From Escherichia phage KKE5P: 39,118 bases of DNA. Shown piece by piece: positions 1 through 39,118 of this stretch (position 1 is its first letter; each line of letters opens with the position of its first letter). A program made the position numbers and the translations under genes. The stretch lies in the sequence record PQ356293.1. One strand, 5' to 3'. Below the pieces are notes generated by a model, which did not search any database, was not told the DNA's origin, and saw only the letters and a program-made list of their open reading frames with translations.

Positions 1-127
1 ATCCTCAAGAATCTGACGGGCCTTAGCGTGGTCACAGCAGCGGTGCCAAATCTCTTCCTCCCATGAGGCATCAAACTCAGCAGCACTCATCGCTTGGAAG
101 ACCAGCCAGTCTCCGTCCATCACGAGG
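1..127. repeat. Exact duplicate of 38992..39118 (window-end overlap from a circularised or concatemeric representation)
   Basis: Direct base-by-base comparison: window 1..127 matches 38992..39118; the repeat lies inside gene 6 coding sequence. Confidence 0.9.
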
Positions 128-189
128 ATACCTTTGTCGTCACAACCTTCGCGTAACTCGTAGAACTCCTTCAGCGTCATCAGGCTCAT
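1..189 (-). CDS. 6: Exonuclease gp6, N-terminal fragment (start codon 187..189; continues at window end)
   Basis: Minus-strand translation MSLMTLKEFYELREGCDDKGILVMDGDWLVFQ... is in frame with ORF 38278..39114 across the overlap; combined length 903 nt = 300 aa as in T7 gp6. Confidence 0.85.
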   Translation of the reverse strand, partial: MSLMTLKEFYELREGCDDKGILVMDGDWLVFQAMSAAEFDASWEEEIWHRCCDHAKARQILED

Positions 190-578
190 AGGGCCTCCTC
201 AGCTGTGCTCATGGCAACCGGAACGATATCCAGCAGCTTACGCTCAGGGTCTAAGGTTGGAGCAGCAGCGTGAACCCAAGTGGTCACAACGCGAGTCTCA
301 CGGCGTTCTTCGAGAACGTTAATCTCTTCACCGTAGGTCTCGAACCCATCGTATGCGGTCGTATAACCGTCAATGGTCAGACGCTTACCAACATACATCG
401 CCAGCACCACAGCCAGCTCGCGGTCATCGTCCATCTCATCTTCGGCTCGCTCAGCGGTAACGTCAAGGAACATCGTAGCGTCCACCATATCGTGCTTCAG
501 ACGACCACCTTCCTCGCACTCACCACATTCCATGATGTAGTGCCACAGTGACAAGTTGTCTTTCTTAGTGAGAATCAT
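186..578 (-). CDS. Hypothetical acidic protein, 130 aa (about 29 D/E vs 13 K/R); no T7 counterpart recognised
   Basis: ATG at 576..578 overlaps upstream stop as ATGA; its stop overlaps gene 6 start as ATGA; GGGGGTG SD-like upstream; sits in the gene 5.9 slot. Confidence 0.65.
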   Translation of the reverse strand: MILTKKDNLSLWHYIMECGECEEGGRLKHDMVDATMFLDVTAERAEDEMDDDRELAVVLAMYVGKRLTIDGYTTAYDGFETYGEEINVLEERRETRVVTTWVHAAAPTLDPERKLLDIVPVAMSTAEEAL

Positions 579-781
579 TCTGCACCCCCTTTAGCCACTA
601 CCAACACCTGAGTAAACTTACGGAACGTCTTAGTACCCCAATGGCTAACGCCCACCTGAACGCTCTTAGCAGTGATTCTCTCCACCTTCGTGGTCAGGAA
701 CTCAGCATACTGAGCACTGGCATACACAATTGTGTCACCAATCTCAATGGGTGTACCACAGTAATCTACAGGCTTACTCAT
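575..781 (-). CDS. Hypothetical protein, 68 aa (MSKPVDYCGTPIEIGDTIVYA...), in gene 5.9 position but not resembling T7 gp5.9
   Basis: ATG at 779..781 overlaps gp5.7 stop (ATGA); track ORF 575..835 trimmed to first ATG after the gp5.7 stop. Confidence 0.55.
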   Translation of the reverse strand: MSKPVDYCGTPIEIGDTIVYASAQYAEFLTTKVERITAKSVQVGVSHWGTKTFRKFTQVLVVAKGGAE

Positions 782-1299: not shown

Positions 1300-1605
1300 T
1301 TATTTCTTGACAAGTTTACGTTCTCTGTTTGTCTTAACAACATGGTCCCGCTTCGGTATACACTGTAGGTGCTCCACGTTGCAGCACCCTCTATTTAGGC
1401 ATAGATGGTCTATCTCGTAACCATCTGGTATAGGTCCTCGGTGTTGCTCCCACACCCATCGGTGGAACATGAAGTTCTTCTTCTCACCTTTACGAGAAGA
1501 CCCTACGCTGTACCGGAAGTATCCATCTTGGTTTCTCTTATGGGAAACGCATACGATACATCCGGTAGGCATCTTGTGAAACCGTAATGTAGCAACGCCT
1601 CCCAT
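1300..1605 (-). CDS. 5.3: gp5.3-position HNH-motif protein, about 101 aa
   Basis: GGAGGT SD then ATG at 1603..1605 just after gene 5 stop; HNH-like motif DGYEIDHLCLNRGCCNVEHL. Confidence 0.7.
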   Translation of the reverse strand: MGGVATLRFHKMPTGCIVCVSHKRNQDGYFRYSVGSSRKGEKKNFMFHRWVWEQHRGPIPDGYEIDHLCLNRGCCNVEHLQCIPKRDHVVKTNRERKLVKK

Positions 1606-1615
1606 AGTACCTCCA

Positions 1616-3730
1616 TTAATGGCATTCTTTCCAGTTGGCTCCCGTCTTACCTTCCGTGTCGAGTAAGCAGCGGAAGTTCCAATGGTCTCCAACCCAACGC
1701 ATCGCCTCCTGTGCAACTTCAATGACAGTCTTAGCGATTTCTTCTGTACGACACGCTACCTGAATTTCATCATGTATCCATGCCATGTACGCAAAGTCCC
1801 CATCCCAGCCGTGCTTCAAGCCTTTCTCTACGAGCATCTCTTCGGTCTTGATAATCCACAGTTTGCAGATAAGAGCACCAGCAGATTGCAGTAGTGTATT
1901 CAATGCAGCGTGAGGACTACGAACGTGTACCTTACGACCGTCCAGACCTTTAATCCAGCGGCGTTTCCACTTGACTCGCTGTTCGCCAGCTACCCACTGA
2001 GAGGACTCGACAAGTGTCTGTTGGATAGACTCACGGAGTGCTGCAATAGCTGGGGTGTTCTCAAGGAATTTCTTCTTGAGTTCCTTACCGCGTTCTTTAC
2101 CAGCGCCAACAATCTGTCCAATCTTCTCATCACCAGCACCATAAAGGAACCCATAGATGAACGTCTTGGCGTTATCACGGGTAGGCAATTCGGCAGCCAT
2201 CTGGTTCTTAGTGTGAATGTCACCATTAAGAATCTCGTGAGCGTACTCTCCGTCATCAAAGCGAGCCATGAAGTGGGCCAAGCAGCGTAGCTCCAGACCG
2301 GATGCGTCGATACCAGCCTGAATCCAAGGCTTACCAGTAATACCGTCTAGGTGATGTTCAGCGCCAAAAGCAGCGCGGCACTTATCACCATAAGGAGAAC
2401 GGACACCGGGCACCTGTGCGAGGTTAGGGAAAGCGTGAGTAGCGCGCCCAGTAACAGCGCCGTTGGGATTAACAGAACCATGAATTTTACCATCCTCAGC
2501 AACGTAACGAAGCCACGCCTTGTCTCCCTCAGCAGACTGTCCGATTCGCTTCTGAATCATCAGGTACTCTTTAATGAGGTCGATAGCAGCTTGCTTCTCA
2601 GGGTCATCTACACGTACTCCTTCGAGTACCTCATCGTCCACCACAGGAGCATTCTTATCGGTGAACTTAGTCGGGACCCATCCAGCCTCTTGGAGTTTCT
2701 TCTGAATGTGGTCACGAGACGATGGGTTAAACACTACGTGCTCTACCGGAGTATACGGAGCACCAGCAACGTACTCGCGGGTATCCAGTTCGCAAGGCTC
2801 TCGGCCTTCTCGCTGTGCCTTGTTCTTCGGCTTCTTAAAGATACCTCCGACTTTAGGTATCTTAACGCGAGGATACTTAGGAAGTGGTTTACCTGTCCTC
2901 GGATGGCAGAACATTTCGGTGCCACCTTTAGGCTGATACCATGTCCCGAACGTTTCGGTCAATTTACGTAGCAACTCAGAGCGGCGAGCAGCCAACTCTA
3001 CGTACAACTCTTCGATTGCTTTCGTGTCAAACGGGAATCCATTGCGCTCTTGCTTAGCGAGCAACCATGCAGCACGATGTTCAACGTCAACGGCCTCAAG
3101 GGATTCTGACCAGAACGTAGTGTAGCCTACATCCGTAAAGTCAATATCAGGATGGAAGTAGTGTTTGTCAGAGAGTAGCTTCTCAAGGAGAGCCTTAGTG
3201 ACCACAACGTCCTGAACGTTATATGCCATCATCTCTTCGTTGAAGTTCAACCACTCCATTCCGTCAACATATTCTTCACCCTGCTCTTCAAGCATACGCT
3301 TAAAGTCGTCCTTGTATTCACCCTTCATTTCTCCTAAGCGATAACCCCACGCCTCCAGAGCGTGAGACCCAAAGCGTTTCCCCGGCAGTTTACCGGAACG
3401 CAGAAGACCCATATCGGTGTCCTTTAGGTTGGAGTGAATCAGGCGTGACAGCACAAGTGTGTCAATACAGTTCTCACGAGGAAGGTGGAACTCTCGGTTC
3501 AATTGCAGCTTTGCCAGTTTGGTCAGTGCAGGAACGTCATACTTGTGACCGTTGTGGAACACAATAAGACCGCCTCGTGCAACCTCGGCTTCCAGCGCAT
3601 CCAGATACGCACCGAAGTCACTCGGACGGTAGCTTACGTACTCAGCGGTGGAGTAGTCGTAGATAACCCCGCAGTGGAACTTAGTGACGCTCTCTAAGAG
3701 GGCGTTAGCTTCGATGTCAGAAACGATCAT
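1616..3730 (-). CDS. 5: DNA polymerase gp5, 704 aa
   Basis: Full-length match from memory to T7 DNA polymerase ([32 protein letters not shown]...), same length. Confidence 0.98.
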
Positions 3731-4824: not shown

Positions 4825-6543
<1,719 letters not shown>

Positions 6544-6575
6544 TCAACATTGCGAACAAAGGGAAACCGTTGTGG

Positions 6576-7055: not shown

Positions 7056-7504
7056 TATTTATTTCCTCCTTTCCTTTTTAATCTATCAAAGGGGACCTCC
7101 TTCTTGGGTTCCTTTATCCACTCAGCAGGTATCAGTTTATCAGCGAACTTAATACCATGCTTTTCGCAGAACTCTCCATAAGACGTTGGAGAACCTTTGT
7201 ATAACTTAGTACGTGAGCTTGAGAAGACAATACGGATGTCTAGCTCGGGGTGCTGCTCTCTAATTAATAAGTGCTTCTTTCTATCATCGCTTTCCCACAG
7301 ACCCTTTGTCTCAACGAATATACCGTTGGGAAGTAAGAAGTCTGGAGTGTAAGTGTGATTGCTCGCCGGAATTACATAAGGCACTTTCCACTCTTCATAC
7401 TCGAATTTAATACCTTTTGATTCCAACTGCTTTGAAACCTTGTCCTCTAGGCCAGAGCGAAACGCTCCAACCTTTCGGATTCCTTTAGCGCCGTAACCTG
7501 CCAT
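7055..7504 (-). CDS. 3: Endonuclease I gp3, 149 aa
   Basis: MAGYGAKGIRKVGAFRSGLEDKVSKQLESKGIKFEYEEWKV...; track ORF 7055..7552 trimmed to ATG 7502..7504. Confidence 0.9.
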   Translation of the reverse strand: MAGYGAKGIRKVGAFRSGLEDKVSKQLESKGIKFEYEEWKVPYVIPASNHTYTPDFLLPNGIFVETKGLWESDDRKKHLLIREQHPELDIRIVFSSSRTKLYKGSPTSYGEFCEKHGIKFADKLIPAEWIKEPKKEVPFDRLKRKGGNK

Positions 7505-7904
7505 GTCGCCTCCCTTTGCGTATATCACAAATAGTCTGTTGGGAGACACCATAGGTGCGAGCTAAGGATACATTGGACTCGCTGGACTCCATGATTGCCA
7601 TTACGTCTTCGTCTGAAAGTTTATACCCCTTGTGTGAGCGACCCTTATTTACCATGTCGGCGGAGTTCTCTTTTGGAGTTCCTATGGATAGGTGTTCAGG
7701 GTTACAACATAATGGATTATCACAGGAGTGCAGGACGGTAGAACCTTTCGGAGCATTAGACATTACACGATGGCAGTAGACAACCTTTCCGGTATTGCTA
7801 CACCACACCTGCCCGTAACCTTTAGAGTTCTTCGCACCCTGCCACTCCCAACATCCAGCGGAAGTCACCCTGACTCTCTCAAGGATTTTCTCCCGCAGTT
7901 CCAC
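7485..7904 (-). CDS. 2.8: gp2.8, HNH-motif protein, 139 aa (apparent GTG start)
   Basis: First codon at 7902..7904 is GTG on the coding strand, GGAGA about 8 nt upstream; motif CHRVMSNAPKGSTVLHSCDNPLCCNPEHL. Confidence 0.75.
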   Translation of the reverse strand: MELREKILERVRVTSAGCWEWQGAKNSKGYGQVWCSNTGKVVYCHRVMSNAPKGSTVLHSCDNPLCCNPEHLSIGTPKENSADMVNKGRSHKGYKLSDEDVMAIMESSESNVSLARTYGVSQQTICDIRKGRRHGRLRR

Positions 7905-8984: not shown

Positions 8985-8995
<11 letters not shown>

Positions 8996-9302
8996 AGCAC
9001 TTGTCCTTATGTTTCTCGTACAGTTCGCCATAGAACCCAGCCTTCGCCATGTCCTTCTCTAAGTAAGCCAGTTCGGATTTCTTACCAGCCCGTAGGCGAT
9101 ACTTTAAGATGTTCCCAAAGCAATACCCCTTGAACTGCTCACGGGTCATCGAACGGGCAATCACTTCGATAGCCTCAATGTCGTCGAACAGGATGTAGTG
9201 GCTTGGAGTACGGACACCAGCTATATCTTGTGGTTTGTTGACTACAGGCTCACAGGTGTGTGGGTATCTGCCGTCATTCTCTAAACACGCCATGCAGACC
9301 AT
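8985..9302 (-). CDS. 1.7: gp1.7-like protein, shortened (105 aa vs about 196 aa in T7)
   Basis: N-terminal CxxC and C-terminal SHYILFDDIEAIEVIARSMTREQFKGYCFGNILKYRLRAGKKSELAYLEKD match T7 gp1.7 ends; middle region missing. Confidence 0.7.
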
Positions 9303-9590: not shown

Positions 9591-9677
9591 AGCGTGACCA
9601 TCTGGCATATCATCATCGCTATAATGGAGCGCAAGGCATCCGACGATGATGATTAGTAGTGGCATTAAGTACATCAT
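9588..9677 (-). CDS. 1.5: gp1.5, 29 aa
   Basis: Hand translation MMYLMPLLIIIVGCLALHYSDDDMPDGHA between phi1.5 and phi1.6. Confidence 0.55.
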   Translation of the reverse strand: MMYLMPLLIIIVGCLALHYSDDDMPDGHA

Positions 9678-9684
9678 AAGGTGT

Positions 9685-9707
9685 ATCTCCTATAGTGAGT
9701 CGTATTA
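9685..9707 (-). promoter_or_regulatory. T7-RNAP promoter phi1.5
   Basis: Promoter-sense taatacgactcactataggagat. Confidence 0.85.
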
Positions 9708-9708
9708 A

Positions 9709-9737
9709 ACGCAGAAAGGCCCACCTTTCGGTGAGCC
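9709..9737 (-). terminator. Early terminator TE for host RNA polymerase
   Basis: Phage-sense hairpin ggcucaccgaaaggugggcc followed by uuucugcg, immediately after ligase stop. Confidence 0.7.
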
Positions 9738-9744
9738 AGTGTGA

Positions 9745-10836
9745 TTACATTTTCTCTTGAGGGTTGTCCTCGGTGCCACGGAACATTACGAACGATGGGT
9801 GACGCAGAGAACCATCGGGTGTTTCCTCCATGTAGCTGATTTGGCAAGCGTAGCTGTTGTACGGGTTGATGTCGTCCAGCGATTCCATACCGCACTCCTC
9901 GCGCTCAACGTCAGTCATGCAGTGGTTCCATACGTACATCCGTTCTTCGATAACCTTGGCGGTGAACTCGTCCATTAAGGCGCGAGAGATGTTTGTGGCG
10001 TTAACTACACGACCACTCTCAAGAAGCACCTCAAAACCAATCACTTTACCTTCATTAGCCAGACCTTTTGTACCCCATACCAGACCCTGAATGATTCCGT
10101 CAGCTTCGTTTTCAGGTTTCATTTTCCACCAGCCGGACTTCTTACCGCGCTTATAGATACACATCGGGTCTTTCACAATGAGACCCTCATGCCCTTCCGC
10201 TCGCTTCTGCTCGTACAGTTGCTGTAGTTCTACCATGTCGTAGACCTCGTAAGACTCAGCCGCTTGCCATTCGATTTCTGGAAAGTATTCCTGTAGCAGA
10301 GGCAGCATGTTCTTAACGTGTTCCTGCATGAGCAACGTCATGACATCGCAGTCTTCTCCAGACTCCACGAGGTGCAGTGGTAGGATAGCGTACAGTTTGA
10401 CTTGGAGTTTTGCGGCGTGTAAGTTGAACGGAACTTTATCTTTCTTACGGACTGGTTCAACGAATAACACTTCATGGAACTCTTGGTTCTTAGTGTCTGT
10501 CCATTTGGTGCGCAGTAGGCCAGACCCTGCGTTGAAGTCTACACCTTTGACCATGAGTTCCCCATCAAGCATAAAGCCATCCTTGTAGAAGCAACGGTCA
10601 TCGCTCAGTAAACGCTTCCAGCGAACATCGAATCCGTTTAAGTGCTCCAGTGCCGGAATCGTTTTAGATACACGAGAGAGCCAGCAACTGTTAGCAGTAT
10701 TGTCTACGCAGATGTTCCCACGCACACCATCGTACTTAATGTCAGCGATAAGATACCCAGCGTTATCCAGAGCTTTCTTAATGGAAGACTCTGCGAAAGA
10801 TGTTGCTTTAAACGGGTTGGTCTTAATGTTCATCAT
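9745..10836 (-). CDS. 1.3: ATP-dependent DNA ligase gp1.3, 363 aa
   Basis: MMNIKTNPFKATSFAESSIKKALDNAGYLIADIKYDGVRGNICVD... with KYDGVRG adenylation motif. Confidence 0.97.
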   Translation of the reverse strand: MMNIKTNPFKATSFAESSIKKALDNAGYLIADIKYDGVRGNICVDNTANSCWLSRVSKTIPALEHLNGFDVRWKRLLSDDRCFYKDGFMLDGELMVKGVDFNAGSGLLRTKWTDTKNQEFHEVLFVEPVRKKDKVPFNLHAAKLQVKLYAILPLHLVESGEDCDVMTLLMQEHVKNMLPLLQEYFPEIEWQAAESYEVYDMVELQQLYEQKRAEGHEGLIVKDPMCIYKRGKKSGWWKMKPENEADGIIQGLVWGTKGLANEGKVIGFEVLLESGRVVNATNISRALMDEFTAKVIEERMYVWNHCMTDVEREECGMESLDDINPYNSYACQISYMEETPDGSLRHPSFVMFRGTEDNPQEKM

Positions 10837-15664: not shown

Positions 15665-15865
15665 TCAATCGTTCCAACCCGCACATGTTGCTTGGTGTAT
15701 CACACAGGCTTGATACTCCTCTTGCGCTAAAATCGGGTTCACCCAAAATGTGACCTGTTTGCCGTATCGCACAACGTAGGAGCATCCCATTGACCCGTGG
15801 TAATACTCACGCAGCGTTACAGTGCATTGGCCTTTGATTTTAGATGTTGCCAGAAGTTTACTCAT
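15665..15865 (-). CDS. Hypothetical early protein, 66 aa (MSKLLATSKIKGQCTVTLREYYHGSMGCSYVV...)
   Basis: ATG at 15863..15865; lies between two near-identical RNase III-type hairpins; track ORF 15665..15937 trimmed. Confidence 0.5.
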   Translation of the reverse strand: MSKLLATSKIKGQCTVTLREYYHGSMGCSYVVRYGKQVTFWVNPILAQEEYQACVIHQATCAGWND

Positions 15866-15886
15866 GGTGTTAGTCCTATAGCGTGT

Positions 15887-15940
15887 TAAGTGATAATCAT
15901 AAAGGCCACTCGCATGGAGCGACCTTGAGCCTATCACTCA
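15887..15940 (-). promoter_or_regulatory. RNase III-type processing hairpin, copy B
   Basis: gtgataatcataaaggccactcgcatggagcgaccttgagcctatcac; paralogous to copy A. Confidence 0.5.
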
Positions 15941-18135: not shown

Positions 18136-19896
18136 TCACCACTCAATGAAAGACGTACCGTAGCCCTCATCGTCCTCAGAGTACACATCAACTCCTCCTA
18201 CAGACATCTCAATGATATGCGTAGCGGCAACCGTAGGACGCATCATGTGTTCCTCAAGGAAGTCAGCAAGCACTTCACCTTCGACCTTAACGGAATCCAA
18301 CTGCATGGACTCACGGAGATACTCAATGCCTAACGCAAGGGCATCCAATCGGTCATCATGTGCCAGAGCGCCTTTCTCACGAGTGATACGGGTCATCTGG
18401 TAGAACAGTGAGTACTTAACGTCATGCTTACCGTCTACGTCACGAGCGGACTGATAGTCTGCCCTAATGACCTCATCACGAATGACAAGGCGGTGAGTCT
18501 GCATGACTGGCTCAAGGGTATCACAAATACGCATCTCCTTCATACCACGAGCACGAATCTCTTCCATCGCACAGTTGTGGTGTTTAAGGAGGATAGGACT
18601 GAATACCTTACCAAACATACCATCACCGAAGTTACTCTCGTAGACAACCGTCTGGACTCCCCATTGCTTAGCTTTCTTGGCGAGCGACTCAAGGGTCTTA
18701 TCGGAGTAACCATCACGGAAACCTCCAGCTTCCATTAGGTAGATGTAACCGTTGAGGGTGTACAGCACAGCGTAACCTGTTTCATCCTTACCACGACCAC
18801 TTGGGTCAATGACCAGAATCTTCTGTTGATACTGACCAGAGTTGTTGGAGCAGTCGTGATAGGTATGCAGGTCATCACCCTTAAGGCCCACGTTAGGAAG
18901 GTCCTCAATGATGTTCTGACGGTTCGGAAGCCACTGGTAATGCATTGGTGCCTTCTCTAAGTCTAAGGCCGCTACTATAGCGTCACGGAGCCTCAGAGGG
19001 TACTTCTCGGCATCACTCAGGTTCGGGTTAAGCATGAACTGTAGCGTAAAGCCAGCCTTACCGTATTCCAATTCACGCTCACGTAGGTCATCACGGTCGA
19101 ATCGCACAGGGTCTGTTGGAGTACCAGCCAGAGCCTCAGGATTCTCCTCGTACTCCGCACGGAGCATTGGTGCCAGACGCTGAGAGTAGTAGAGGTTCTC
19201 TTCGCGTGTCCTTGGGTATAGAGCAGGCCAGATGATAGTGGTGTACCCACGGTTATCTTCAAGTTCCTTATAGAGAGTCATCTCAGTCTGAGGTGTTCCA
19301 AGGTAGATAACACGAGAAGTTGGCAATGGTTTAAGTAACGCAGCGAACTCCTGAACGAGAGTCCATAGCTTCTCACGGGCACCCATAGTAGCACTGTTAG
19401 ACGGAATCTCAACGTCATCAGCGATGATAATGTCAGCACGGCTACCAGTTAACTGACCAGTGATACCTACCGATTTCACACTAGGAGAGTGGTCAGGCTT
19501 AGCTGGGCCAACGTCAAAGCTGATTACAGAGTCACGCTGTCCGGGTCTCGGCTTCAACTCACTGAGAAACGGTAGAAGGTCAATGATGTTCTTGATGAAG
19601 ATGGAGTTAGCGTCTGCACGTTCCTTAGAAGCTGATACGATAAGTATCTTCAACTGAGGGTCTCTCCATAAGGACCACACAACGAACGCACAAGTGATGA
19701 ACGACTTACCGATACCACGGAAAGCCTGTAGGATGAACTTCTTGTTGTCTCCATTCGCCAGACATCGGGCCATGTCAATTTGACACTTAGTCGGCGGCGG
19801 GAGAGCAAGAGCCTTCCACAATACGAACAGGAACGCCACGAAGTCGCCCTTTAGTTGCGCCACAACGAGCGCATTACGATTGGCCTGAGTAGACAC
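18136..19896 (-). CDS. 19: Terminase large subunit gp19, 586 aa (apparent GTG start)
   Basis: (M)[65 protein letters not shown]...; first codon at 19894..19896 is GTG after AAGGAGGT. Confidence 0.97.
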
Positions 19897-19905
19897 ATTA
19901 CCTCC

Positions 19906-20349
19906 TTACTTGATTTCCTGCTTGCGTTGTAGTTCACGAATAGTATCCTGTAACGCACGAATCCACGCGTCACCCTTCTGTGTCACTGCGATAATACGTT
20001 TAGCATCTCGGTCGTCAAGTTCGGCTCGACCATCAGGCTCGAATCCACACTGACCATCGGAGGTTCCGGTAGTCTTGATTCTGACGCGCAACCGCTTATT
20101 GTCGCTACGCAAATCAGAAATAATCCTATCAGTGCTCCCTTCCAGCGCGGCAAGGTCTTCTTGATACTTAGCCGATATTTCATTGATTGCTCTTTGAGTG
20201 CTCGCTGTAGCCTCAACTCTCTTAACGTACTCATTCTGTACCTCCTGTTTCCACTTGGCGTCCATTGAGTCTGACCCTAGATGCCATCCTAATCCGAATA
20301 GCATCCCAGCGAGAACCCAAGGGACTAGCTTACGTAAAAATTGCAGCAT
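19906..20349 (-). CDS. 18.5: gp18.5 inner-membrane spanin (Rz-like), 147 aa
   Basis: MLQFLRKLVPWVLAGMLFGLGWHLGSDSMDAKWKQEV... with N-terminal TM segment. Confidence 0.9.
   Translation of the reverse strand: MLQFLRKLVPWVLAGMLFGLGWHLGSDSMDAKWKQEVQNEYVKRVEATASTQRAINEISAKYQEDLAALEGSTDRIISDLRSDNKRLRVRIKTTGTSDGQCGFEPDGRAELDDRDAKRIIAVTQKGDAWIRALQDTIRELQRKQEIK
19983..20234 (-). CDS. 18.7: gp18.7 outer-membrane lipoprotein spanin (Rz1-like), embedded in 18.5 in another frame
   Basis: Lipobox-like TISGC and proline-rich tail; embedded +1 frame arrangement. Confidence 0.75.
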   Translation of the reverse strand: MSTLRELRLQRALKEQSMKYRLSIKKTLPRWKGALIGLFLICVATISGCASESRLPEPPMVSVDSSLMVEPNLTTEMLNVLSQ

Positions 20350-20973: not shown

Positions 20974-22851
20974 TTACGTTTGTGGGTAGTCACACACTAC
21001 GTCAATATAGTTGATTGCCTGTACTCCAGAACCTGTAGCCGCTACTAGTTTAACTTGATTCGCCGCAGGGAACTCTAAGGTGTACGACCAGTTAGCTAGA
21101 GTGATGTGCATTCGGTCAGCAGTGTTTGGCTGGAGGAACGGGCTACAACGGTATACCTGAGAGTTGGGGTTTTGGCTATCGGTGTGTGCGCCAATTACTA
21201 GCATCTTGTTGAGAATATCCTCAGAGCAAGTCACTGTTCTTCCAGTCGCAAGTTGTCCTTGAGACGTGCGGTCGCTAAACACTCGGCGAAGGAACTTCTG
21301 TCCAGACTTCTCGAGGTTCTCATTAGTAACCATACGTGTAAGTAGTTCGGTATAAACCTGCTCGACGCGAGAAGCCAACACAGCGGCATCCACTGAACCC
21401 GGATTGTTGACAACACCGTGAGTCCTGATAACCCAGACAATCACGATGCCATTCATACGGGCTTCATTAATGTCCTTCTTGTAGACGTCGTTCCACAGTG
21501 ACGCGTCGAAACCTAACTGAGCACCACCGGTATCGTTAGTTGCACCTTTGTTGGAGCGCCCAGCGTTGTAGAATGCACCAGAGGCACTGGAGGCCAGCTC
21601 ATTATCGGCAAGTGTAATCAGACCCTCAATGTTTGGTAGAGCTGACTTCTGAACGTCACCTACAGTAAACCCAGCGTCACCACGGAACACAGGAGCCTTA
21701 ATGGAACCCGCATAGACACCGTTTAGGTCTGGTACACGGAAAGTGGTCGTACCGTTACCTAAGGTATAGCAACCACGTTTACCGGGGTCAGCAAGCCATA
21801 CGTCGTCAGAGACAACCGGGAGGTGCCCTGCCAGTAACTCAGCGACTAGTGCAGGGAACTGGTTGCGGTTCAATAGTTGCCCGTCACCGTATACTGTACC
21901 CGGCTTAGCGTAAGTACGAGAGTTGTGAATCTCAAACTCACCAACCTGACGTACGGCCACGCCGTTAATCCGGTCAACCAGAGTGTTAAACTGAATTAGC
22001 TTATCGGATTCAGTCTTTGCACTACTTGCAGATGTCGCAGCGTTGCTCTCAGATACAGCGGCCTGTTGAGCAGACGTGTTGGCTGCATCGCGGTAACCCA
22101 GAGCATCATTGGCGTAATCACCAGCACGGTCAGCCTGTGCCTTAGCGTTCGCTACTTGTGCCTGAGAGTTACCCGCAGAGATTGCAGACGCATTAGCGCT
22201 TTCCTCAGAGGTCAACGCCCAATGCTTAGCGGAATACTGATTGGGGACCACGGGTGTACCTTTAGGGTTCTCAGCCCACTTCTTCGCCAACTGCTCGGAA
22301 GCCTTTGAGTTTGTCTCAGAGGTCTTAGCGTTATTCTCAGAAGTCTTCGCTTTGTTCGCACTATCGGCGGCACTACCAGACCAGCGATTCATCTGACCAA
22401 CCGTAACAGCGTCACCGGGGTCAATGCCATCCGCTACATTCACCACACGTCTACCACGCGCATCTAGATGACCATCGTTGTTTACACCTATAGTGTCAGA
22501 CGTTAAATCTCGCGCCTCTTCTGCCACATGCATAGTCTGAATCTGGGCCACGTTAAGGTCATACGCACGGAGGATAGAGCCATCTGTAAAGTCAACCAAT
22601 CGGTCGGTAGTGGATGTAACCCGCCGTACCTCGATGGTTTCATAGCTATCAGCCGGACCCCAAGCCTTAGTTAGGGATATGGTTGTTCGAGTAGCGAATC
22701 GGTAGTCTGCATTGATGGTAAGCACTTTACGGTCCTTACCAATAAGAGTTACCACTACGAACTTACGGGCCAGATACTCAAACGGGATATTAAAATCACG
22801 AGTTGAGCCATCTAACGGGTAAGTCAAAACGGTCTTAATTACGTTAGCCAT
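20974..22851 (-). CDS. 17: Tail fibre gp17, 625 aa (T7-like N-terminal domain, divergent shaft and distal domain)
   Basis: N-terminus MANVIKTVLTYPLDGSTRDFNIPFEYLARKFVVVTLIG... matches T7 gp17; beyond about residue 165 it differs from T7 as recalled. Confidence 0.9.
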   Translation of the reverse strand: MANVIKTVLTYPLDGSTRDFNIPFEYLARKFVVVTLIGKDRKVLTINADYRFATRTTISLTKAWGPADSYETIEVRRVTSTTDRLVDFTDGSILRAYDLNVAQIQTMHVAEEARDLTSDTIGVNNDGHLDARGRRVVNVADGIDPGDAVTVGQMNRWSGSAADSANKAKTSENNAKTSETNSKASEQLAKKWAENPKGTPVVPNQYSAKHWALTSEESANASAISAGNSQAQVANAKAQADRAGDYANDALGYRDAANTSAQQAAVSESNAATSASSAKTESDKLIQFNTLVDRINGVAVRQVGEFEIHNSRTYAKPGTVYGDGQLLNRNQFPALVAELLAGHLPVVSDDVWLADPGKRGCYTLGNGTTTFRVPDLNGVYAGSIKAPVFRGDAGFTVGDVQKSALPNIEGLITLADNELASSASGAFYNAGRSNKGATNDTGGAQLGFDASLWNDVYKKDINEARMNGIVIVWVIRTHGVVNNPGSVDAAVLASRVEQVYTELLTRMVTNENLEKSGQKFLRRVFSDRTSQGQLATGRTVTCSEDILNKMLVIGAHTDSQNPNSQVYRCSPFLQPNTADRMHITLANWSYTLEFPAANQVKLVAATGSGVQAINYIDVVCDYPQT

Positions 22852-35601: not shown

Positions 35602-35624
35602 TCTCCCTATAGTGAGTCGTATTA
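35602..35624 (-). promoter_or_regulatory. T7-RNAP promoter phi9
   Basis: Promoter-sense taatacgactcactatagggaga overlapping gene 8 stop. Confidence 0.85.
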
Positions 35625-37232
35625 AATGCCCGGCTGTAAACCTACGGAATCAGCGGCAGCAGCCATAGCCTCAGGAGAAGCTGTAGCCTGTGCAGCCATA
35701 CCTTGACCAAGCGCAGCAGCACCATTGTCCATACCCATTTGCATAGCCTGTTGTGCCATCTGCTGTTGCTTCTGTTCTTCGGTGAGAAGAATGCCAGAAG
35801 TATCAATACCGATAGCGTTGGCAATGCGCAACTTAATCATCGCAAGGTTAATATCAGGGTCATCCCTCATCGGCGCTAGTGCAGCCCACGCAGCAACACA
35901 CCGCTCCAGCTTATCAAGGTCTTGTCCTCGACCGATTGCTTCCAGACCTGTACTAATGGTTGGCTCTACAGCTTCCTTAGGTAACTCAGGAATCTGTTGC
36001 GTGGCTTGTAGTTGCTTCAAGAGCACTCGTACCAGAGGCAATTGTAATTCTTGAGAAAGGATGGAGTAGACACCACCTAAAGTATCTTCAAGTTCAGAAG
36101 CGACATACCGAATCTCTTCGGCGGTCACACGTTCCCCTGTACGCTGAACCGCAGAGTTCAACATAAAGGCAAACGAAAGGCGAGCCTCAATAGCGTCACT
36201 GACGGCCTTGGCTACAGTAAAGTCTGCTTGCTTCTCCAGTTGGAGGAACGAGATGTCTTCTGGGCGACCAGTAACGAAGTCCCCAGTCTGAGCCTTGGTC
36301 AGTCGGCGTGGCTGGGTAATACCAGCAGGGTTCACTAAGCCGATAACCTTAGAGCTAATCATTGACATCTTAACGATAGCCTCTTGGAGATTCTCAAGGG
36401 ACCGTAAGTCACCCAAGTATTCCTCAATGTACGAACGACCATAGGATTCGCCGTCCAGACGAACCATCCGAATCGGGATGTACGGACAAGCCTCTTTAGG
36501 GTAAGTTCCATCGGAGCCTTGTACCTCCATGCCCTCGACCTCTTCGTATCGGAGGTATTCACCAGAGTCCTCATCCAGATAGATGTGAGTGTACACGTCG
36601 ACGGTCTCATCAGCTTTCTTCTCACCACCTTGACCTTCTACAGCCTTACGGATGTCCTCAGGGAGAGCGCCAAAAGCTATCTGGTCACGAGTCACCATTT
36701 GCAGAACGTTGCCGAATGCGTCTCGTTGGACCACATAAGAAGACAATCGGTACAGCTTCATGGGATTGTAGTTTGACCCTTCTGGTTCCGGTAGGTACAG
36801 CAGGACGTTACCCGCTACGACTAACTGCTTGAGAGCCTCAAAGAGAGTCACTCGGTAACTGTTAGACTCAATGTAGTTCATGATGATACGCTCTACCATC
36901 GATAGACCCTCATCAACCTTAGCGAGTCCATCGGGGTCGTTCAGTAACTGTTTTGCCTCATACTCAGAGATGGTCAGCTTCATCCACGTTTGCATCGGGA
37001 AGAGGGCCAACATGAGCTTAGAGGCCAAGTTATTGAGACCGCGAGCACCCACAGCTTGCCACGGAGTCGTGTAGTCTGTGGATGAGTTATCGGAATCCTT
37101 AGGGAAGAGGGACGGAATGGTGTACTGAGCGCAGTTTTGAGCACGAGTCTCGTAAGGAGCGCGGTCGTTCTTCAATCGGTCATAAACGGACTTCGCGCCT
37201 TCCTCGGCTAGACCTGTACGCTTCTCAGCCAT
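35622..37232 (-). CDS. 8: Portal (head-tail connector) protein gp8, 536 aa
   Basis: MAEKRTGLAEEGAKSVYDRLKNDRAPYETRAQNCAQYTIPSLFPKDSDNSSTDYTTPWQAVGARG... Confidence 0.98.
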   Translation of the reverse strand: MAEKRTGLAEEGAKSVYDRLKNDRAPYETRAQNCAQYTIPSLFPKDSDNSSTDYTTPWQAVGARGLNNLASKLMLALFPMQTWMKLTISEYEAKQLLNDPDGLAKVDEGLSMVERIIMNYIESNSYRVTLFEALKQLVVAGNVLLYLPEPEGSNYNPMKLYRLSSYVVQRDAFGNVLQMVTRDQIAFGALPEDIRKAVEGQGGEKKADETVDVYTHIYLDEDSGEYLRYEEVEGMEVQGSDGTYPKEACPYIPIRMVRLDGESYGRSYIEEYLGDLRSLENLQEAIVKMSMISSKVIGLVNPAGITQPRRLTKAQTGDFVTGRPEDISFLQLEKQADFTVAKAVSDAIEARLSFAFMLNSAVQRTGERVTAEEIRYVASELEDTLGGVYSILSQELQLPLVRVLLKQLQATQQIPELPKEAVEPTISTGLEAIGRGQDLDKLERCVAAWAALAPMRDDPDINLAMIKLRIANAIGIDTSGILLTEEQKQQQMAQQAMQMGMDNGAAALGQGMAAQATASPEAMAAAADSVGLQPGI

Positions 37233-37246
37233 GTGTCACCTCCTGT

Positions 37247-37543
37247 TTAAATGTTGATGCCGCCACCAGCGCTACGAGCCACACTCAAGGACTTCTTACC
37301 GCCAGCGCGAGCTTTCTTACGTCCGCTTTCGGTCTGTGCTTCGTCCTCAGTGGAAACCTCTTTCTCTGGTACGTCAACAATCTGTGCAGCAGGAGTGGCC
37401 TGTGCTTGAGGGACCTCTACAACCTGAGCGCCACCATCTGCACCTACTGCACCAGCAAGACCCTTAGCTACCTGCTTTACTGGCTTGGTGACCTGTTTTA
37501 CCACTTTCTTTACGGCCTTCTTGATTTTCTTAAATAAACCCAT
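37247..37543 (-). CDS. 7.3: gp7.3 tail-associated protein, 98 aa
   Basis: MGLFKKIKKAVKKVVKQVTKPVKQVAKGLAGAVGADGGA...SVARSAGGGINI. Confidence 0.85.
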   Translation of the reverse strand: MGLFKKIKKAVKKVVKQVTKPVKQVAKGLAGAVGADGGAQVVEVPQAQATPAAQIVDVPEKEVSTEDEAQTESGRKKARAGGKKSLSVARSAGGGINI

Positions 37544-37569
37544 GAGTTATACCTCCTCTTAGATGGTTA

Positions 37570-37821
37570 TCACTTCTTGCCAAAAGCTGATTTGCGAATG
37601 GCAGACTTCGTGCGGCTTGATGCTTGATACTTCTCCACAGAGTTGTCCCTGTCTACTTTTAAGGACTTGCGCCCAGACATCTCAGAACCTTCTGTCTCCA
37701 TATCGTCACTCGAACCGCCGAACTCAACACTTGACACCTCCTGAGTCAGTGGTGCAGGTTCTACCGCACGTACCTGATTCGTGTCAATCTTTGGCGTCTT
37801 AATCTTTGGTGAGAAACACAT
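37570..37821 (-). CDS. 6.7: gp6.7, 83 aa
   Basis: MCFSPKIKTPKIDTNQVRAVEPAPLTQEVSSVEFGGSSDDMETEGSEMSGRKSLKV...; track ORF trimmed to ATG 37819..37821. Confidence 0.85.
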   Translation of the reverse strand: MCFSPKIKTPKIDTNQVRAVEPAPLTQEVSSVEFGGSSDDMETEGSEMSGRKSLKVDRDNSVEKYQASSRTKSAIRKSAFGKK

Positions 37822-37825
37822 AAGG

Positions 37826-38080
37826 TCAATCCTCCCCATCGTCTCTTAGTTGTTCCTTGCGCAACTCAATCTCGTCAATGATGTTAGAGGCATACTGTAG
37901 GCCCTGAATGAAACCCAAGATGTGAGCTTCACTACAGCCACTAGCACGCATAAATCCTATATGACCAGACGCTTCGAGGTACGCGTGGTTGAATCGAACC
38001 TGTAGATACTCAGCGGTTGCACGAGGTACATCTGGAATATCGTTAGGGTTCTTAAGTAAATGGTTAATAGGTGTTAACAT
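37826..38080 (-). CDS. 6.5: gp6.5, 84 aa
   Basis: [57 protein letters not shown]...; track ORF trimmed. Confidence 0.85.
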
Positions 38081-38095
38081 AATACGATTCCTCTT

Positions 38096-38190
38096 AGAGT
38101 TAAATCTTAAAGTAATAATCATAAAGGCCCCTATCTCCCTATAGTGAGTCGTATTAATTTAGGGACCTTGAGTTTATCACTTAGAGTCTT
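38096..38190 (-). promoter_or_regulatory. RNase III-type imperfect hairpin bracketing phi6.5 (R6.5-like)
   Basis: gtaataatcataaaggcccct ... agggaccttgagtttatcac flank the promoter. Confidence 0.45.
38127..38149 (-). promoter_or_regulatory. T7-RNAP promoter phi6.5
   Basis: Promoter-sense taatacgactcactatagggaga (exact consensus). Confidence 0.85.
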
Positions 38191-38290: not shown

Positions 38291-39118
38291 AGGTAAATCT
38301 CCTTGTCAATAAAGTTGTACTCATTGAACCGCAGGATGCGCGCCATCTGGCCTTGCTTGATAACATCCTCTTCGGTCATGCCAGCCTTAGCACCAATGGA
38401 CTTAATGCAGTCCCAGAGCGTCTCATGTGGCTCAGGGTCGCGTTTAACCCACTTAGTGACCTCTTGCCCTTTGTTCTTCCCAGACTTAAGCACAGAGGTC
38501 TTAGGCTCGGTAATGAACGGGTTATTCAGGAAGTCCTCGGCAGTATCACCCCACCCCGCAATCCCTGAGTAACCATCGGTGATGTCACCCTTGATTGTCT
38601 GGAATAGATGCCACCAGTCAGCGGACTCTTCGGTCTGAGTCAGGATGTTACCAGTTGTACACCACAGGAAGTCGCAGTTAGGGATGGTCTTAAAGTCCTT
38701 ATCGCACGAGATGATTACAGCCTTACGAGCACCGAATGCAGACGGATTGGAAGCAATTACTCCCATAACGTCATCACCCTCAAGCATAGGCTCACGGATG
38801 CAATAGAACTCTTCGCGCTCAAAGAGGGCCTCAAGGAACTCAAAGTAACCTACAGGTTTCTTGGTGGCCTTACGGTTAGCCTTGTAGTTCGGGTCCACCA
38901 GTTCTTTGCGCCAGTTAACGCTATCTGTGAACGCAAGGACAATCGGAGCACCTACCCAAGCCTTCTTGCGGGTCTCATAGGACTTGATGGAATCCTCAAG
39001 AATCTGACGGGCCTTAGCGTGGTCACAGCAGCGGTGCCAAATCTCTTCCTCCCATGAGGCATCAAACTCAGCAGCACTCATCGCTTGGAAGACCAGCCAG
39101 TCTCCGTCCATCACGAGG
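38278..39118 (-). CDS. 6: Exonuclease gp6, C-terminal 280 codons (N-terminus runs off window end; see 1..189)
   Basis: ...MDGDWLVFQAMSAAEFDASWEEEIWHRCCDHAKARQILEDSIKSYETRKKAW... matches T7 gp6 to the C-terminus. Confidence 0.95.
   Translation of the reverse strand, partial: LVMDGDWLVFQAMSAAEFDASWEEEIWHRCCDHAKARQILEDSIKSYETRKKAWVGAPIVLAFTDSVNWRKELVDPNYKANRKATKKPVGYFEFLEALFEREEFYCIREPMLEGDDVMGVIASNPSAFGARKAVIISCDKDFKTIPNCDFLWCTTGNILTQTEESADWWHLFQTIKGDITDGYSGIAGWGDTAEDFLNNPFITEPKTSVLKSGKNKGQEVTKWVKRDPEPHETLWDCIKSIGAKAGMTEEDVIKQGQMARILRFNEYNFIDKEIYLWRP

What the first reader, a model, noticed from the sequence alone, without database searches (positions are those of the whole stretch)
37232..37570. 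Genes 7 and 7.7 appear to be absent
gp6.7 ends at 37570 and gp7.3 starts at 37543 (26-bp gap); gp7.3 ends at 37247 and gp8 starts at 37232. In T7 as I recall, gene 7 (about 133 aa) sits between 6.7 and 7.3 and gene 7.7 (about 130 aa) between 7.3 and 8. Their absence fits the smaller genome and a reduced, non-essential gene set.
Basis: partly seen in the sequence, partly recalled or inferred. Interest (0 to 1): 0.4.

Follow-up and report, generated by a model that had tools for sequence, protein, structure and literature searches.

The report
T7-like phage lacking genes 7 and 7.7
This complete T7-like phage genome really lacks T7 genes 7 and 7.7, but this is ordinary accessory-gene variation: 7.7 is an optional mobile nuclease gene, and gene 7 is missing because the phage carries a different version of the surrounding gene block.

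Summary
On the minus strand, gene 6.7 (37570-37821), a 26-bp spacer, gene 7.3 (37247-37543), a 14-bp spacer and gene 8 (35622-37232) lie directly next to each other. T7 has gene 7 (133 aa) and gene 7.7 (130 aa, HNH endonuclease) at these two junctions.

No gp7 homologue exists anywhere in the window. The only gp7.7-like hits are the HNH genes at the 2.8 and 5.3 positions.

The two absences have different causes.
- **Gene 7.7** is an experimentally dispensable HNH gene that most non-T7 isolates of the genus seem to lack. Genomes without it, the window included, share a distinct allele of the first ~300 nt of gene 8. This fits a homing-endonuclease empty site.
- **Gene 7** is present in essentially every isolate at T7-level identity (about 177 records). 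The window belongs to a wild clade whose 33-nt 6.7/7.3 junction is identical in 22 independent sequencing runs. Here all of 6.7 and the first half of 7.3 form a divergent block inside a 91-96% T7-like backbone. This indicates module exchange, not a recent deletion.

The layout matches T3-like phages. "Streamlining" is only partly right, because the genome also gained DNA elsewhere. Interest is low.

The parts
38134..38156 (-). T7-type class III promoter (phi6.5 equivalent) that drives the 6.5-6.7-7.3-8 transcription unit
   Evidence: Perfect 23/23 match to TAATACGACTCACTATAGGGAGA. The next perfect copy downstream is at 35602-35624, and there is none in between.
37826..38080 (-). Gene 6.5 (84 aa); the T7-like backbone to the left of the divergent block
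   Evidence: 94% amino-acid identity to T7 gp6.5. 95-96% nucleotide identity to T7, 3A_8767 and phiA1122.
37570..37821 (-). Gene 6.7 (83 aa, core/ejected virion protein), in the divergent clade-specific allele
   Evidence: Pfam PF17570, E = 4.7e-28. Matches PDB 9JYY/9JYZ 'Protein 6.7' at E = 1.5e-36. Its 5' part is only ~75% identical in DNA to T7-type genomes, and its 3' ~60-100 nt has no DNA match. Within the gene-7-less clade it is 95-97% identical. At protein level it is 96% identical to P0001, and every other hit is <=80% identical, or <=78% among full-length matches.
37544..37569 (-). 26-nt 6.7/7.3 spacer where T7 has gene 7; it carries the gene 7.3 ribosome-binding site (GAGGAGG)
   Evidence: Read directly from the sequence. 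The alignment to T7 shows 402 bp of gene 7 replaced by about 8 unique nt. The 33-nt junction string is identical in 22 Logan loci.
37247..37543 (-). Gene 7.3 (98 aa, tail-channel protein); the 5' ~135 nt belong to the divergent block and the 3' part is T7-like
   Evidence: Pfam PF11653, E = 8e-42. Matches PDB 9JYZ 'Protein 7.3' at E = 5e-35. Positions 37408-37543 are poorly alignable to T7, while 37247-37407 is 91-93% identical. The N-terminus MGLFKKIKK resembles the T3 type MGFFKKIKK, not the T7 type MGKKVKK.
37233..37246 (-). 14-nt 7.3/8 spacer: the empty site where T7 carries the HNH gene 7.7
   Evidence: The gap from the 7.3 stop to the gene 8 start is 14 nt in the window, 3A_8767 and 13 Logan loci. 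It is 405 nt in T7 and phiA1122 and 391 nt in L008-L016.
36933..37232 (-). First ~300 nt of gene 8, in the allele found only in genomes without an HNH gene at the 7.7 site
   Evidence: Window against T7: 59 mismatches in 300 nt here, against 65 in the remaining 1311 nt (Fisher p ~1e-14). The differences are mostly synonymous. The allele class tracks HNH presence in all 26 sequences compared.
35622..37232 (-). Gene 8 (portal / head-tail connector, 536 aa)
   Evidence: 97.9% amino-acid identity to T7 gp8 over 536 residues.
35602..35624 (-). T7-type promoter (phi9 equivalent); end of the transcription unit described here
   Evidence: Perfect consensus match.
7485..7904 (-). Gene 2.8 HNH endonuclease, a paralogue of 7.7 and not a relocated copy
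   Evidence: 95% identical to T7 gp2.8 at the syntenic position, and 50% identical to gp7.7. Pfam HNH_3.
1300..1722 (-). HNH endonuclease ORF at the gene 5.3 position (start codon uncertain), a second paralogue and not gene 7.7
   Evidence: Pfam HNH_3, E = 8e-19. Only 37% identity to gp7.7 over 41 residues. T7 gp5.3 itself has no hit in the window.

Best explanation
The window is a complete, circularly assembled genome of the T7 genus (Teseptimavirus). Genes 6.7, 7.3 and 8 lie directly next to each other, the arrangement known from T3-like phages. Both genes are truly absent, for two unrelated reasons.

1. **Gene 7.7.** This is a free-standing HNH endonuclease gene that is optional in this genus, and the window carries the unoccupied site. 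Genomes with an HNH gene there, of either of two types that are only 50% identical to each other, carry a different version of the first ~150-300 nt of gene 8 than genomes without one. That pattern is what homing with co-conversion of flanking DNA, or a protected target site, would leave. The inference is that the window's gene 8 start is the 'empty, possibly cleavable' allele.

2. **Gene 7.** This is an accessory 'host range' gene, and its product is not seen in solved T7 virion structures. It is missing because a ~414-nt block has a different ancestry from the T7-like backbone around it and contains no gene 7. The block covers all of 6.7, a 26-nt spacer and the first ~45% of 7.3. It is shared, with an identical junction, by a wild clade seen in many sequencing runs. 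So the loss is an inherited or recombined module state, not a recent deletion.

The parts of gp6.7 and gp7.3 that are ordered in the T7 virion are conserved. Both downstream genes keep strong ribosome-binding sites inside one phi6.5-driven transcript. The phage should therefore assemble normally.

Shown: the absence, the layout, the clade, the mosaic block and the allele association. Inferred: homing activity of the HNH genes, and recombination as the route by which gene 7 was lost.
For: - **Layout and absence:**
- **Collinear with T7:** the genome is ~92-93% identical to T7, with discrete indels of -408 nt at gene 7 and -391 nt at gene 7.7.
- **Same layout in other genera:** T3-like phages PoeticCupcake, phiYeO3-12 and SH2 have 6.7, a 27-nt gap, 7.3, a 10-nt gap, then 8. 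Foetvirus P1723 also lacks both genes.
- **Gene 7.7 is optional:** 3A_8767 and the 33 best-matching isolates have an insert the size of gene 7 only. T7-type 7.7 DNA occurs in 108 records, almost all T7 strains and Yersinia pestis phages. Seven more records match at 60-80% identity, and the three checked (C5, HZ2R8, LNA7) carry a ~68%-identical HNH gene next to gene 8.
- **Gene 7.7 is dispensable:** it was deleted without loss of viability in PMC12153263, PMC9825161 and bioRxiv 10.1101/2025.09.07.674715.
- **Gene 8 allele dimorphism:** it is tied to HNH presence in 26 of 26 sequences. Mismatch density is 19.7% in nt 1-300 against 5.0% in the rest, p ~1e-14. The window-type allele is found at >=90% identity in 41 phage records.
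- **Gene 7 is near-universal in the genus:** 177 records have gp7 at >=90% identity, against 175-177 records at T7-level nucleotide identity.
- **A gene-7-less clade exists:**. The 33-nt junction is identical in 22 of 22 Logan loci, each from a different run.
- **Mosaic block:** nucleotide identity to T7-type genomes is 95-96% in 6.5, 75% in the 5' part of 6.7, unalignable across the 6.7 3' end, spacer and 7.3 5' end, then 91-93% in the 7.3 3' end. The block occurs both with and without an HNH gene downstream.
- **Structural parts conserved:** gp6.7 residues 2-15 are 13/14 identical to T7 and residues 34-50 are 12/17 identical. The gp7.3 C-terminal segment (T7 residues 82-99) has one substitution. 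These are the regions resolved in PMC11784390.
- **gp7 is not in any PDB entry, whereas gp6.7 and gp7.3 are:**
- **One transcription unit:**
Against: - No donor lineage for the divergent block was found. T3-like and Foetvirus sequences are only 47-77% similar there. Exact-junction scans of IMG/VR and JGI contigs gave nothing.
- The last ~17 nt of the spacer (GGAGGTATAAnTnATGGGT) match the 3' end of T7 gene 7. An old deletion in a diverged T7-like ancestor therefore cannot be excluded.
- The 5' half of gene 7.3 is hypervariable even among phages that have gene 7. Part of the flank divergence is thus not specific to this clade.
- I found no experiment showing homing or cleavage by gp7.7. The allele association could reflect shared ancestry of a recombined segment. 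The nine L008-L016 loci are near-identical, so the number of independent lineages is small: about two HNH types and three or four HNH-less backgrounds.
- The '177 versus 175-177' comparison is a count of records, not a record-by-record match.
Confidence: 0.85

Rival explanations
1. Gene 7 was lost by a recent, simple deletion from an otherwise T7-like genome, for example recombination between short repeats during propagation. The absence of 7.7 would be a similar deletion.
For: The right-hand 17 nt of the 26-nt spacer resemble the 3' end of T7 gene 7 and the 7.3 ribosome-binding site. The left edge sits right after the 6.7 stop codon. The net loss at the two sites (408 + 391 nt) is about the size of the two genes.
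Against: The sequence on both sides of the gene 7 gap is not T7-like. The 5' part of 6.7 is 75% identical, the 3' part of 6.7 is unalignable, and the 5' part of 7.3 is poorly alignable, whereas 6.5 and the 3' part of 7.3 are 91-96% identical. The junction is identical in 22 independent runs and occurs in at least two different downstream backgrounds. No useful microhomology was seen at the T7 breakpoints. For 7.7, the empty site is the commoner state among isolates that are not T7 itself, and it comes with its own gene 8 allele.
Confidence: 0.1
2. The absence is an assembly or binning artefact. Gene 7 or 7.7 would be present in the real phage but collapsed or skipped by the assembler.
For: The window is an assembler product with a 127-bp end overlap. 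No reads are available to check.
Against: Twenty-two independently assembled contigs from different runs have the same 33-nt junction, and thirteen have the same 14-nt 7.3/8 spacer. All flanking ORFs are intact, with proper ribosome-binding sites. No gene 7 fragment exists anywhere in the window.
Confidence: 0.01
3. The functions are retained elsewhere. Either the genes moved, or an unrelated gene replaces gene 7, for example the extra 130-aa ORF at 186-578, which is almost the same size as gp7.
For: The window has extra ORFs that T7 lacks: 130 aa at 186-578, 68 aa at about 578-781, and an ORF at 15665-15937. HNH genes are present at the 2.8 and 5.3 positions.
Against: The 130-aa ORF has no similarity to gp7 (BLASTP E = 0.14). 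It belongs to a different PHROG family (19215, against 2746 for gp7), and it sits at the same site in Foetvirus P1723 (97.7% identity). None of the extra ORFs matches gp7's PHROG family or an acetyltransferase family. The HNH genes are syntenic with T7 genes 2.8 and 5.3, so they are not relocated copies of 7.7.
Confidence: 0.04

Closest known systems
The gene 6.5-6.7-7.3-8 arrangement of T3-like phages (Teetrevirus: phiYeO3-12, SH2, PoeticCupcake)
   Same: The gene order is the same, with no gene 7 and no 7.7. There is a 27-nt spacer between 6.7 and 7.3 (26 nt here) and a 10-nt spacer between 7.3 and 8 (14 nt here). gp7.3 starts MGFFKKIKK, against MGLFKKIKK here.
   Different: The window's backbone is T7-like, ~92-93% identical to T7. 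The local sequence is not T3-like: DNA identity is ~77% over only a third of the block, and the 3' end of 6.7 and the spacer do not align. It is therefore not a recent T3-to-T7 transfer.
Natural T7-genus isolates without gene 7.7 (Salmonella phage 3A_8767, vB_EcoP_IME390, PHB20 and others)
   Same: The 14-nt 7.3/8 spacer is identical, and they share the same gene 8 5' allele at 95-98% identity.
   Different: All of these keep gene 7 (402 bp) and the T7-type 6.7 allele.
T7 gene 7.7 and the other free-standing HNH genes of T7 (2.8, 3.8, 5.3), treated as homing endonucleases in bioRxiv 10.1101/2025.09.07.674715
   Same: The site between 7.3 and 8 is occupied in some close relatives and empty in others. 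A divergent flanking tract accompanies occupancy, as expected for homing endonuclease genes.
   Different: The window has no gene at this site. I found no cleavage or homing experiment for gp7.7 in the papers searched.
Foetvirus phage P1723 (MT465573)
   Same: It also lacks genes 7 and 7.7. It shares the window's 130-aa ORF between 5.7 and 6 (97.7% identity) and the tail-fibre C-terminal region (95% identity).
   Different: Its gp6.7 and gp7.3 are only 47% and 54% identical to the window's, and its spacer is 10 nt. It is therefore not the source of the gene-7-less block.

Membership tests
Teseptimavirus (T7-like phage genome) | Collinear with T7 at high nucleotide identity over most of the genome | tested here: met
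   ~92-93% identity over ~90% of the query. There is a single collinear chain of blastn matches with discrete indels. Of the 56 T7 proteins tested, 49 have hits, most at 90-99% identity.
Teseptimavirus (T7-like phage genome) | Single-subunit RNA polymerase and T7-consensus promoters | tested here: met
   gp1 is 99% identical to the T7 RNA polymerase. There are ten matches to the 23-nt T7 promoter consensus, six of them perfect, against 0 expected by chance.
Teseptimavirus (T7-like phage genome) | Presence of gene 7 (PHROG 2746), as in the other genus members examined | tested here: not met
   No tblastn hit better than E = 1.9. 177 phage records carry gp7 at >=90% identity. This is a typical feature of the genus, not a formal criterion for it.
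T3-type (gene-7-less, 7.7-less) 6.7-7.3-8 arrangement | 6.7 followed by a short spacer and then 7.3; 7.3 followed by a short spacer and then 8 | tested here: met
   26-nt and 14-nt spacers here, against 27 and 10 nt in three T3-like phages.
T3-type (gene-7-less, 7.7-less) 6.7-7.3-8 arrangement | Local sequence derived from a T3-like phage | tested here: not met
   Only ~77% identity over about a third of the block, and the 6.7 3' end and spacer are unalignable.
Empty site of a free-standing HNH homing endonuclease gene | The gene is present or absent at the same intergenic position among close relatives | tested here: met
   The distance from the 7.3 stop to the gene 8 start is 14 nt in the window and 14 other sequences (L001, L007, L018-L029). 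It is 391 or 405 nt in 11 others.
Empty site of a free-standing HNH homing endonuclease gene | A flanking tract of elevated divergence (co-conversion or protected target) linked to occupancy | tested here: met
   Gene 8 nt 1-300 is ~80% identical between occupied and empty genomes, against 94-97% further downstream. The association holds in 26 of 26 sequences, p ~1e-14. Few of these lineages are independent.
Empty site of a free-standing HNH homing endonuclease gene | The endonuclease cuts the empty allele and the gene is over-inherited in mixed infection | not testable with these tools
   This needs enzyme assays or phage crosses. No such experiment for gp7.7 was found in the papers searched.
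GNAT acetyltransferase fold (for T7 gp7, the protein this phage lacks) | Mixed alpha/beta GNAT topology | tested here: met
   AlphaFold2 model with mean pLDDT 90.6 and pTM 0.83. All 50 best PDB matches are GNAT enzymes, with E from 8e-6 and TM-score up to 0.70, and there are 248 matches at E <= 0.001.
GNAT acetyltransferase fold (for T7 gp7, the protein this phage lacks) | Conserved acetyl-CoA-binding motif Q/R-x-x-G-x-G/A after strand 4 | tested here: inconclusive
   The corresponding stretch (INPEADSKGLQRFL) is not conserved as that motif in the 11-sequence alignment; the glycine varies to S, A or E. There is no Pfam hit.

The most novel reading that the evidence does not exclude
The window represents a wild T7-genus clade with no counterpart in the isolate collection searched. 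It has done without gene 7, a gene otherwise kept at >=92% amino-acid identity in every isolate at T7-level identity. It also carries a foreign tail-fibre tip. Combined with the prediction that gp7 has a GNAT acetyltransferase fold, this would make T7's long-unexplained 'host range' gene testable. The question would be whether gp7 is an enzyme that modifies a host or virion component and is needed only on some hosts. A second, smaller reading is that the window's gene 8 start is the natural cleavage target of the 7.7-type HNH endonucleases.
Probability: 0.25. Interest if true: 0.4.

Novelty: new member of a known kind. Interest (0 to 1): 0.15.

Why it matters
It matters little for the window itself. 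Presence or absence of small accessory genes and of HNH endonuclease genes is routine in T7-like phages, and the layout found here has been known from T3-like phages for two decades.

The modest value lies in three points.
- Gene 7 can be absent in nature from a phage that is otherwise T7-like. This gives a natural control for working out what gene 7 does.
- The two alleles of the gene 8 start give a concrete candidate target for the 7.7-type endonucleases.
- The locus shows how module exchange, rather than deletion, reshapes the gene content of these phages.

Tried and rejected
- **Relocated or diverged copies.** tblastn with T7, 3A_8767 and phiA1122 proteins at E <= 10 found no gp7. Only the HNH genes at the 2.8 and 5.3 sites matched gp7.7.
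- **The 130-aa ORF at 186-578 as a gene 7 substitute.** Rejected: no similarity, a different PHROG family, and syntenic with a Foetvirus ORF. Other extra ORFs were scanned and none matches gp7's family or an acetyltransferase family.
- **A donor for the gene-7-less block.** T3-like phages and Foetvirus P1723 share the layout but not the sequence. A distant-mode blastn of the junction found no phage record covering >=80% of it. Exact-junction scans of IMG/VR and JGI metagenome contigs found nothing. An exact-sequence look-up of the window's gp7.3 found nothing.
- **Microhomology at the T7 breakpoints, as a sign of deletion.** None convincing.
- **Literature on gene 7 function.** Eight full-text searches and several papers gave data on gp6.7, gp7.3 and the dispensability of 7.7. 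For gene 7 they gave nothing beyond the 'host range' label in the T7 record.
- **GC content as a sign of foreign origin.** T7 gene 7 is 48.8% GC against 48.4% for the genome, which is uninformative. Gene 7.7 is 44.8%.
Full report
**What the window is.** All long ORFs lie on the minus strand in T7 gene order. The first and last 127 bases are identical, so this is a closed assembly with a unit length of 38,991 bp. It is ~92-93% identical to T7 and to isolates such as vB_EcoP_IME390 over ~90% of its length. No record of the phage collection matches it more closely. A whole-genome comparison with T7 gives one collinear chain of matches, interrupted by discrete indels. Of the 56 T7 proteins tested, 49 have tblastn hits, most at 90-99% identity.

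**Checking the observation.** On the minus strand, gene 6.7 ends at 37570 and gene 7.3 runs 37543->37247. Gene 8 starts at 37232. The real 6.7 start is the MCFSPK codon at 37821.

The T7 reference has gene 7 (19130-19531, 133 aa, 'host range') between 6.7 and 7.3. It has gene 7.7 (19848-20240, 130 aa, HNH endonuclease) between 7.3 and 8.

gp7 from three phages finds nothing in the window (best E = 1.9). gp7.7 hits only gene 2.8 (7485-7904, which is 95% identical to T7 gp2.8) and an HNH ORF at the 5.3 position. Perfect T7 promoters lie at 38134-38156 and 35602-35624 with none between them. So 6.5-6.7-7.3-8 is one transcription unit, and both downstream genes have strong ribosome-binding sites.

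**Gene 7.7.**
- The closest isolates (3A_8767, IME390, PHB20, C2 and about 30 more) have an insert of only ~400 bp relative to the window, which is gene 7. Their 7.3/8 spacer is the same 14 nt.
- T7-type 7.7 DNA occurs in 108 records, almost all of them T7 laboratory strains and Yersinia pestis phages. Seven more records match at 60-80% identity. The three I looked at (C5, HZ2R8, LNA7) carry a ~68%-identical HNH gene next to gene 8.
- The gene has been deleted from T7 without loss of viability (PMC12153263, PMC9825161, bioRxiv 10.1101/2025.09.07.674715).
- Presence of an HNH gene at this site goes with a different version of the start of gene 8. The window, 3A_8767 and 13 Logan contigs without the gene are 95-100% identical to each other over gene 8 nt 1-300. 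They are only ~80% identical there to T7, phiA1122 and nine Logan contigs that carry an HNH gene. Further downstream all of them are 94-97% identical.
- Window against T7: 59 mismatches in the first 300 nt and 65 in the other 1311 nt (p ~1e-14). The differences are mostly synonymous and the tract ends near nt 293-330.
- The Logan HNH is only 50% identical to gp7.7. Even so, it sits at the same place with the T7-type gene 8 start (98.7% identity over nt 1-75).
- This is the footprint expected of homing endonuclease genes that carry along, or need, an altered flank. Cleavage itself is untested, and the number of independent lineages is small.

**Gene 7.**
- tblastn with gp7 finds 206 phage records, 177 of them at >=90% amino-acid identity. 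This equals the number of records at T7-level nucleotide identity, 175-177. Gene 7 is therefore close to universal in the genus, and the window is the exception.
- Weaker homologues (38-64% identity) occur in phages that match gp7 much less closely, such as Ebrios, IME15, vB_YenP_AP10 and phiEap-1.
- T3-like phages and Foetvirus have no gene 7 and show the same layout as the window.
- The window is not alone. Its gp6.7 is 96% identical to a protein cluster seen on 16 contigs, and its gp7.3 is 95-99% identical to clusters on about 28 more. Every contig inspected has 6.7 (83 aa), a 26-nt gap, then 7.3 (97-98 aa).
- A 33-nt string across the junction is identical in all 22 Logan loci fetched, each from a different sequencing run.

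**How gene 7 was lost.** Nucleotide identity to T7-type genomes changes sharply along the locus:

| Segment | Identity to T7-type genomes |
|---|---|
| Gene 6.5 | 95-96% |
| 5' part of 6.7 | 75% |
| 6.7 3' end, spacer and first ~135 nt of 7.3 | unalignable |
| Rest of 7.3 | 91-93% |

- A ~414-nt block (about 37408-37821) therefore has a different history from its surroundings.
- Its gp7.3 start (MGLFKKIKK) resembles the T3 type rather than the T7 type.
- The block occurs both with and without an HNH gene downstream, and next to different 6.5 3' ends.
- This favours replacement or retention of a gene-7-less module over a recent deletion.
- Two cautions apply. The last ~17 nt of the spacer match the end of T7 gene 7. 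No donor lineage was found in T3-like phages, Foetvirus, IMG/VR or JGI contigs.

**Consequences for the virion.** gp6.7 and gp7.3 are built into solved T7 virion structures, whereas gp7 is in none. The ordered parts reported by Zheng et al. (PMC11784390) are gp6.7 residues 2-15 and 34-50 and the gp7.3 C-terminal loop, residues 84-98. All are conserved in the window: 13/14 and 12/17 identical, and one substitution in the gp7.3 C-terminal segment (T7 residues 82-99). The divergent parts are the tails that are disordered in T7. Normal assembly is therefore expected; this is an inference.

The genome is 786 bp shorter than T7 counted with a single copy of its terminal repeat, and the two sites account for 408 + 391 nt. 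The genome also loses 1.4, half of 1.7 and 3.8. It swaps 5.3 for another HNH gene. It gains ~444 nt at the 5.9 site, ~211 nt in the tail fibre gene and ~295 nt near 0.4/0.5. Mosaic turnover of accessory genes describes this better than reduction.

**Side result.** The protein this phage lacks, T7 gp7, has no Pfam family. From an 11-sequence alignment it is predicted with high confidence (pLDDT 90.6) to adopt a GNAT acetyltransferase fold. All 50 best PDB matches are GNAT enzymes. The usual acetyl-CoA-binding motif is not conserved, so enzymatic activity is open. I found no paper in the library making this link.

**Verdict.** It is a new member of a known kind, namely a T7-genus clade with the T3-type 6.7-7.3-8 arrangement. 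Interest is low.

Noticed in passing
window 1-127 and 38992-39118: The first and last 127 bases are identical, which is the signature of a circularly closed assembly. The unit genome is 38,991 bp, and gene 6 is split across the window ends.
   Followed up: yes
window 186-578 (-) and about 578-781 (-): T7 gp5.9, the RecBCD inhibitor, has no detectable homologue. Between 5.7 and 6 lie a 68-aa ORF (PHROG 2251, function unknown) and a 130-aa ORF (PHROG 19215, function unknown, no Pfam hit). The 130-aa ORF is 97.7% identical to the ORF at the same site in Foetvirus phage P1723. Logan locus L028 has the same 130-aa gene.
   Followed up: partly
window 20974-21963 (-): The C-terminal ~330 aa of the tail fibre gp17 (625 aa, against 553 in T7) are 95% identical to Foetvirus phage P1723, whose host is E. 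coli K-12. Only the N-terminal ~300 aa are T7-like, at 56% identity. This is a second module shared with Foetvirus and suggests a receptor specificity different from T7's.
   Followed up: partly
window 36933-37232 (-), and loci L001-L003, L007-L029: The first ~300 nt of gene 8 exist in two allele classes about 20% apart, mostly at synonymous sites. The class tracks presence or absence of an HNH gene upstream. The T7 allele is as far from the window's as the alleles of other genera are (77-81%).
   Followed up: yes
window 6513-6548 and 1300-1722 (-): Of T7's four HNH genes, only 2.8 is kept. Gene 3.8 is absent (34 nt in the window against 372 nt in T7). Gene 5.3 is replaced by an unrelated HNH_3 ORF.
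   Followed up: partly
window 8985-9302 (-) and about 9591-9748: Gene 1.7 (nucleotide kinase) is represented only by its C-terminal half, matching T7 residues 96-195. Gene 1.4 has no homologue.
   Followed up: no
window 15665-15937 (-): About 295 nt of extra DNA lie between genes 0.4 and 0.5 relative to T7. It holds an ORF matching PHROG 6500 (function unknown).
   Followed up: no
not in the window: T7 gp7 (NC_001604 19130-19531; proteins P0199-P0209, model m9b916c459ba7): T7's 'host range' protein gp7 has no Pfam family but is confidently predicted (pLDDT 90.6) to have a GNAT acetyltransferase fold. The canonical acetyl-CoA-binding motif is not conserved. Invariant Cys and His residues (H74, C113, H121, plus the nearly invariant C119) might form a metal site. 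No paper in the library links gp7 to this fold.
   Followed up: partly
L008-L016 (Logan runs SRR232532xx), locus positions about 929-1324 in L008: A second type of HNH gene (131 aa, 50% identical to T7 gp7.7) occupies the 7.3/8 site in gene-7-less phages and overlaps the 7.3 stop codon. The ~68%-identical DNA matches in phages C5, HZ2R8 and LNA7 may be the same type.
   Followed up: partly
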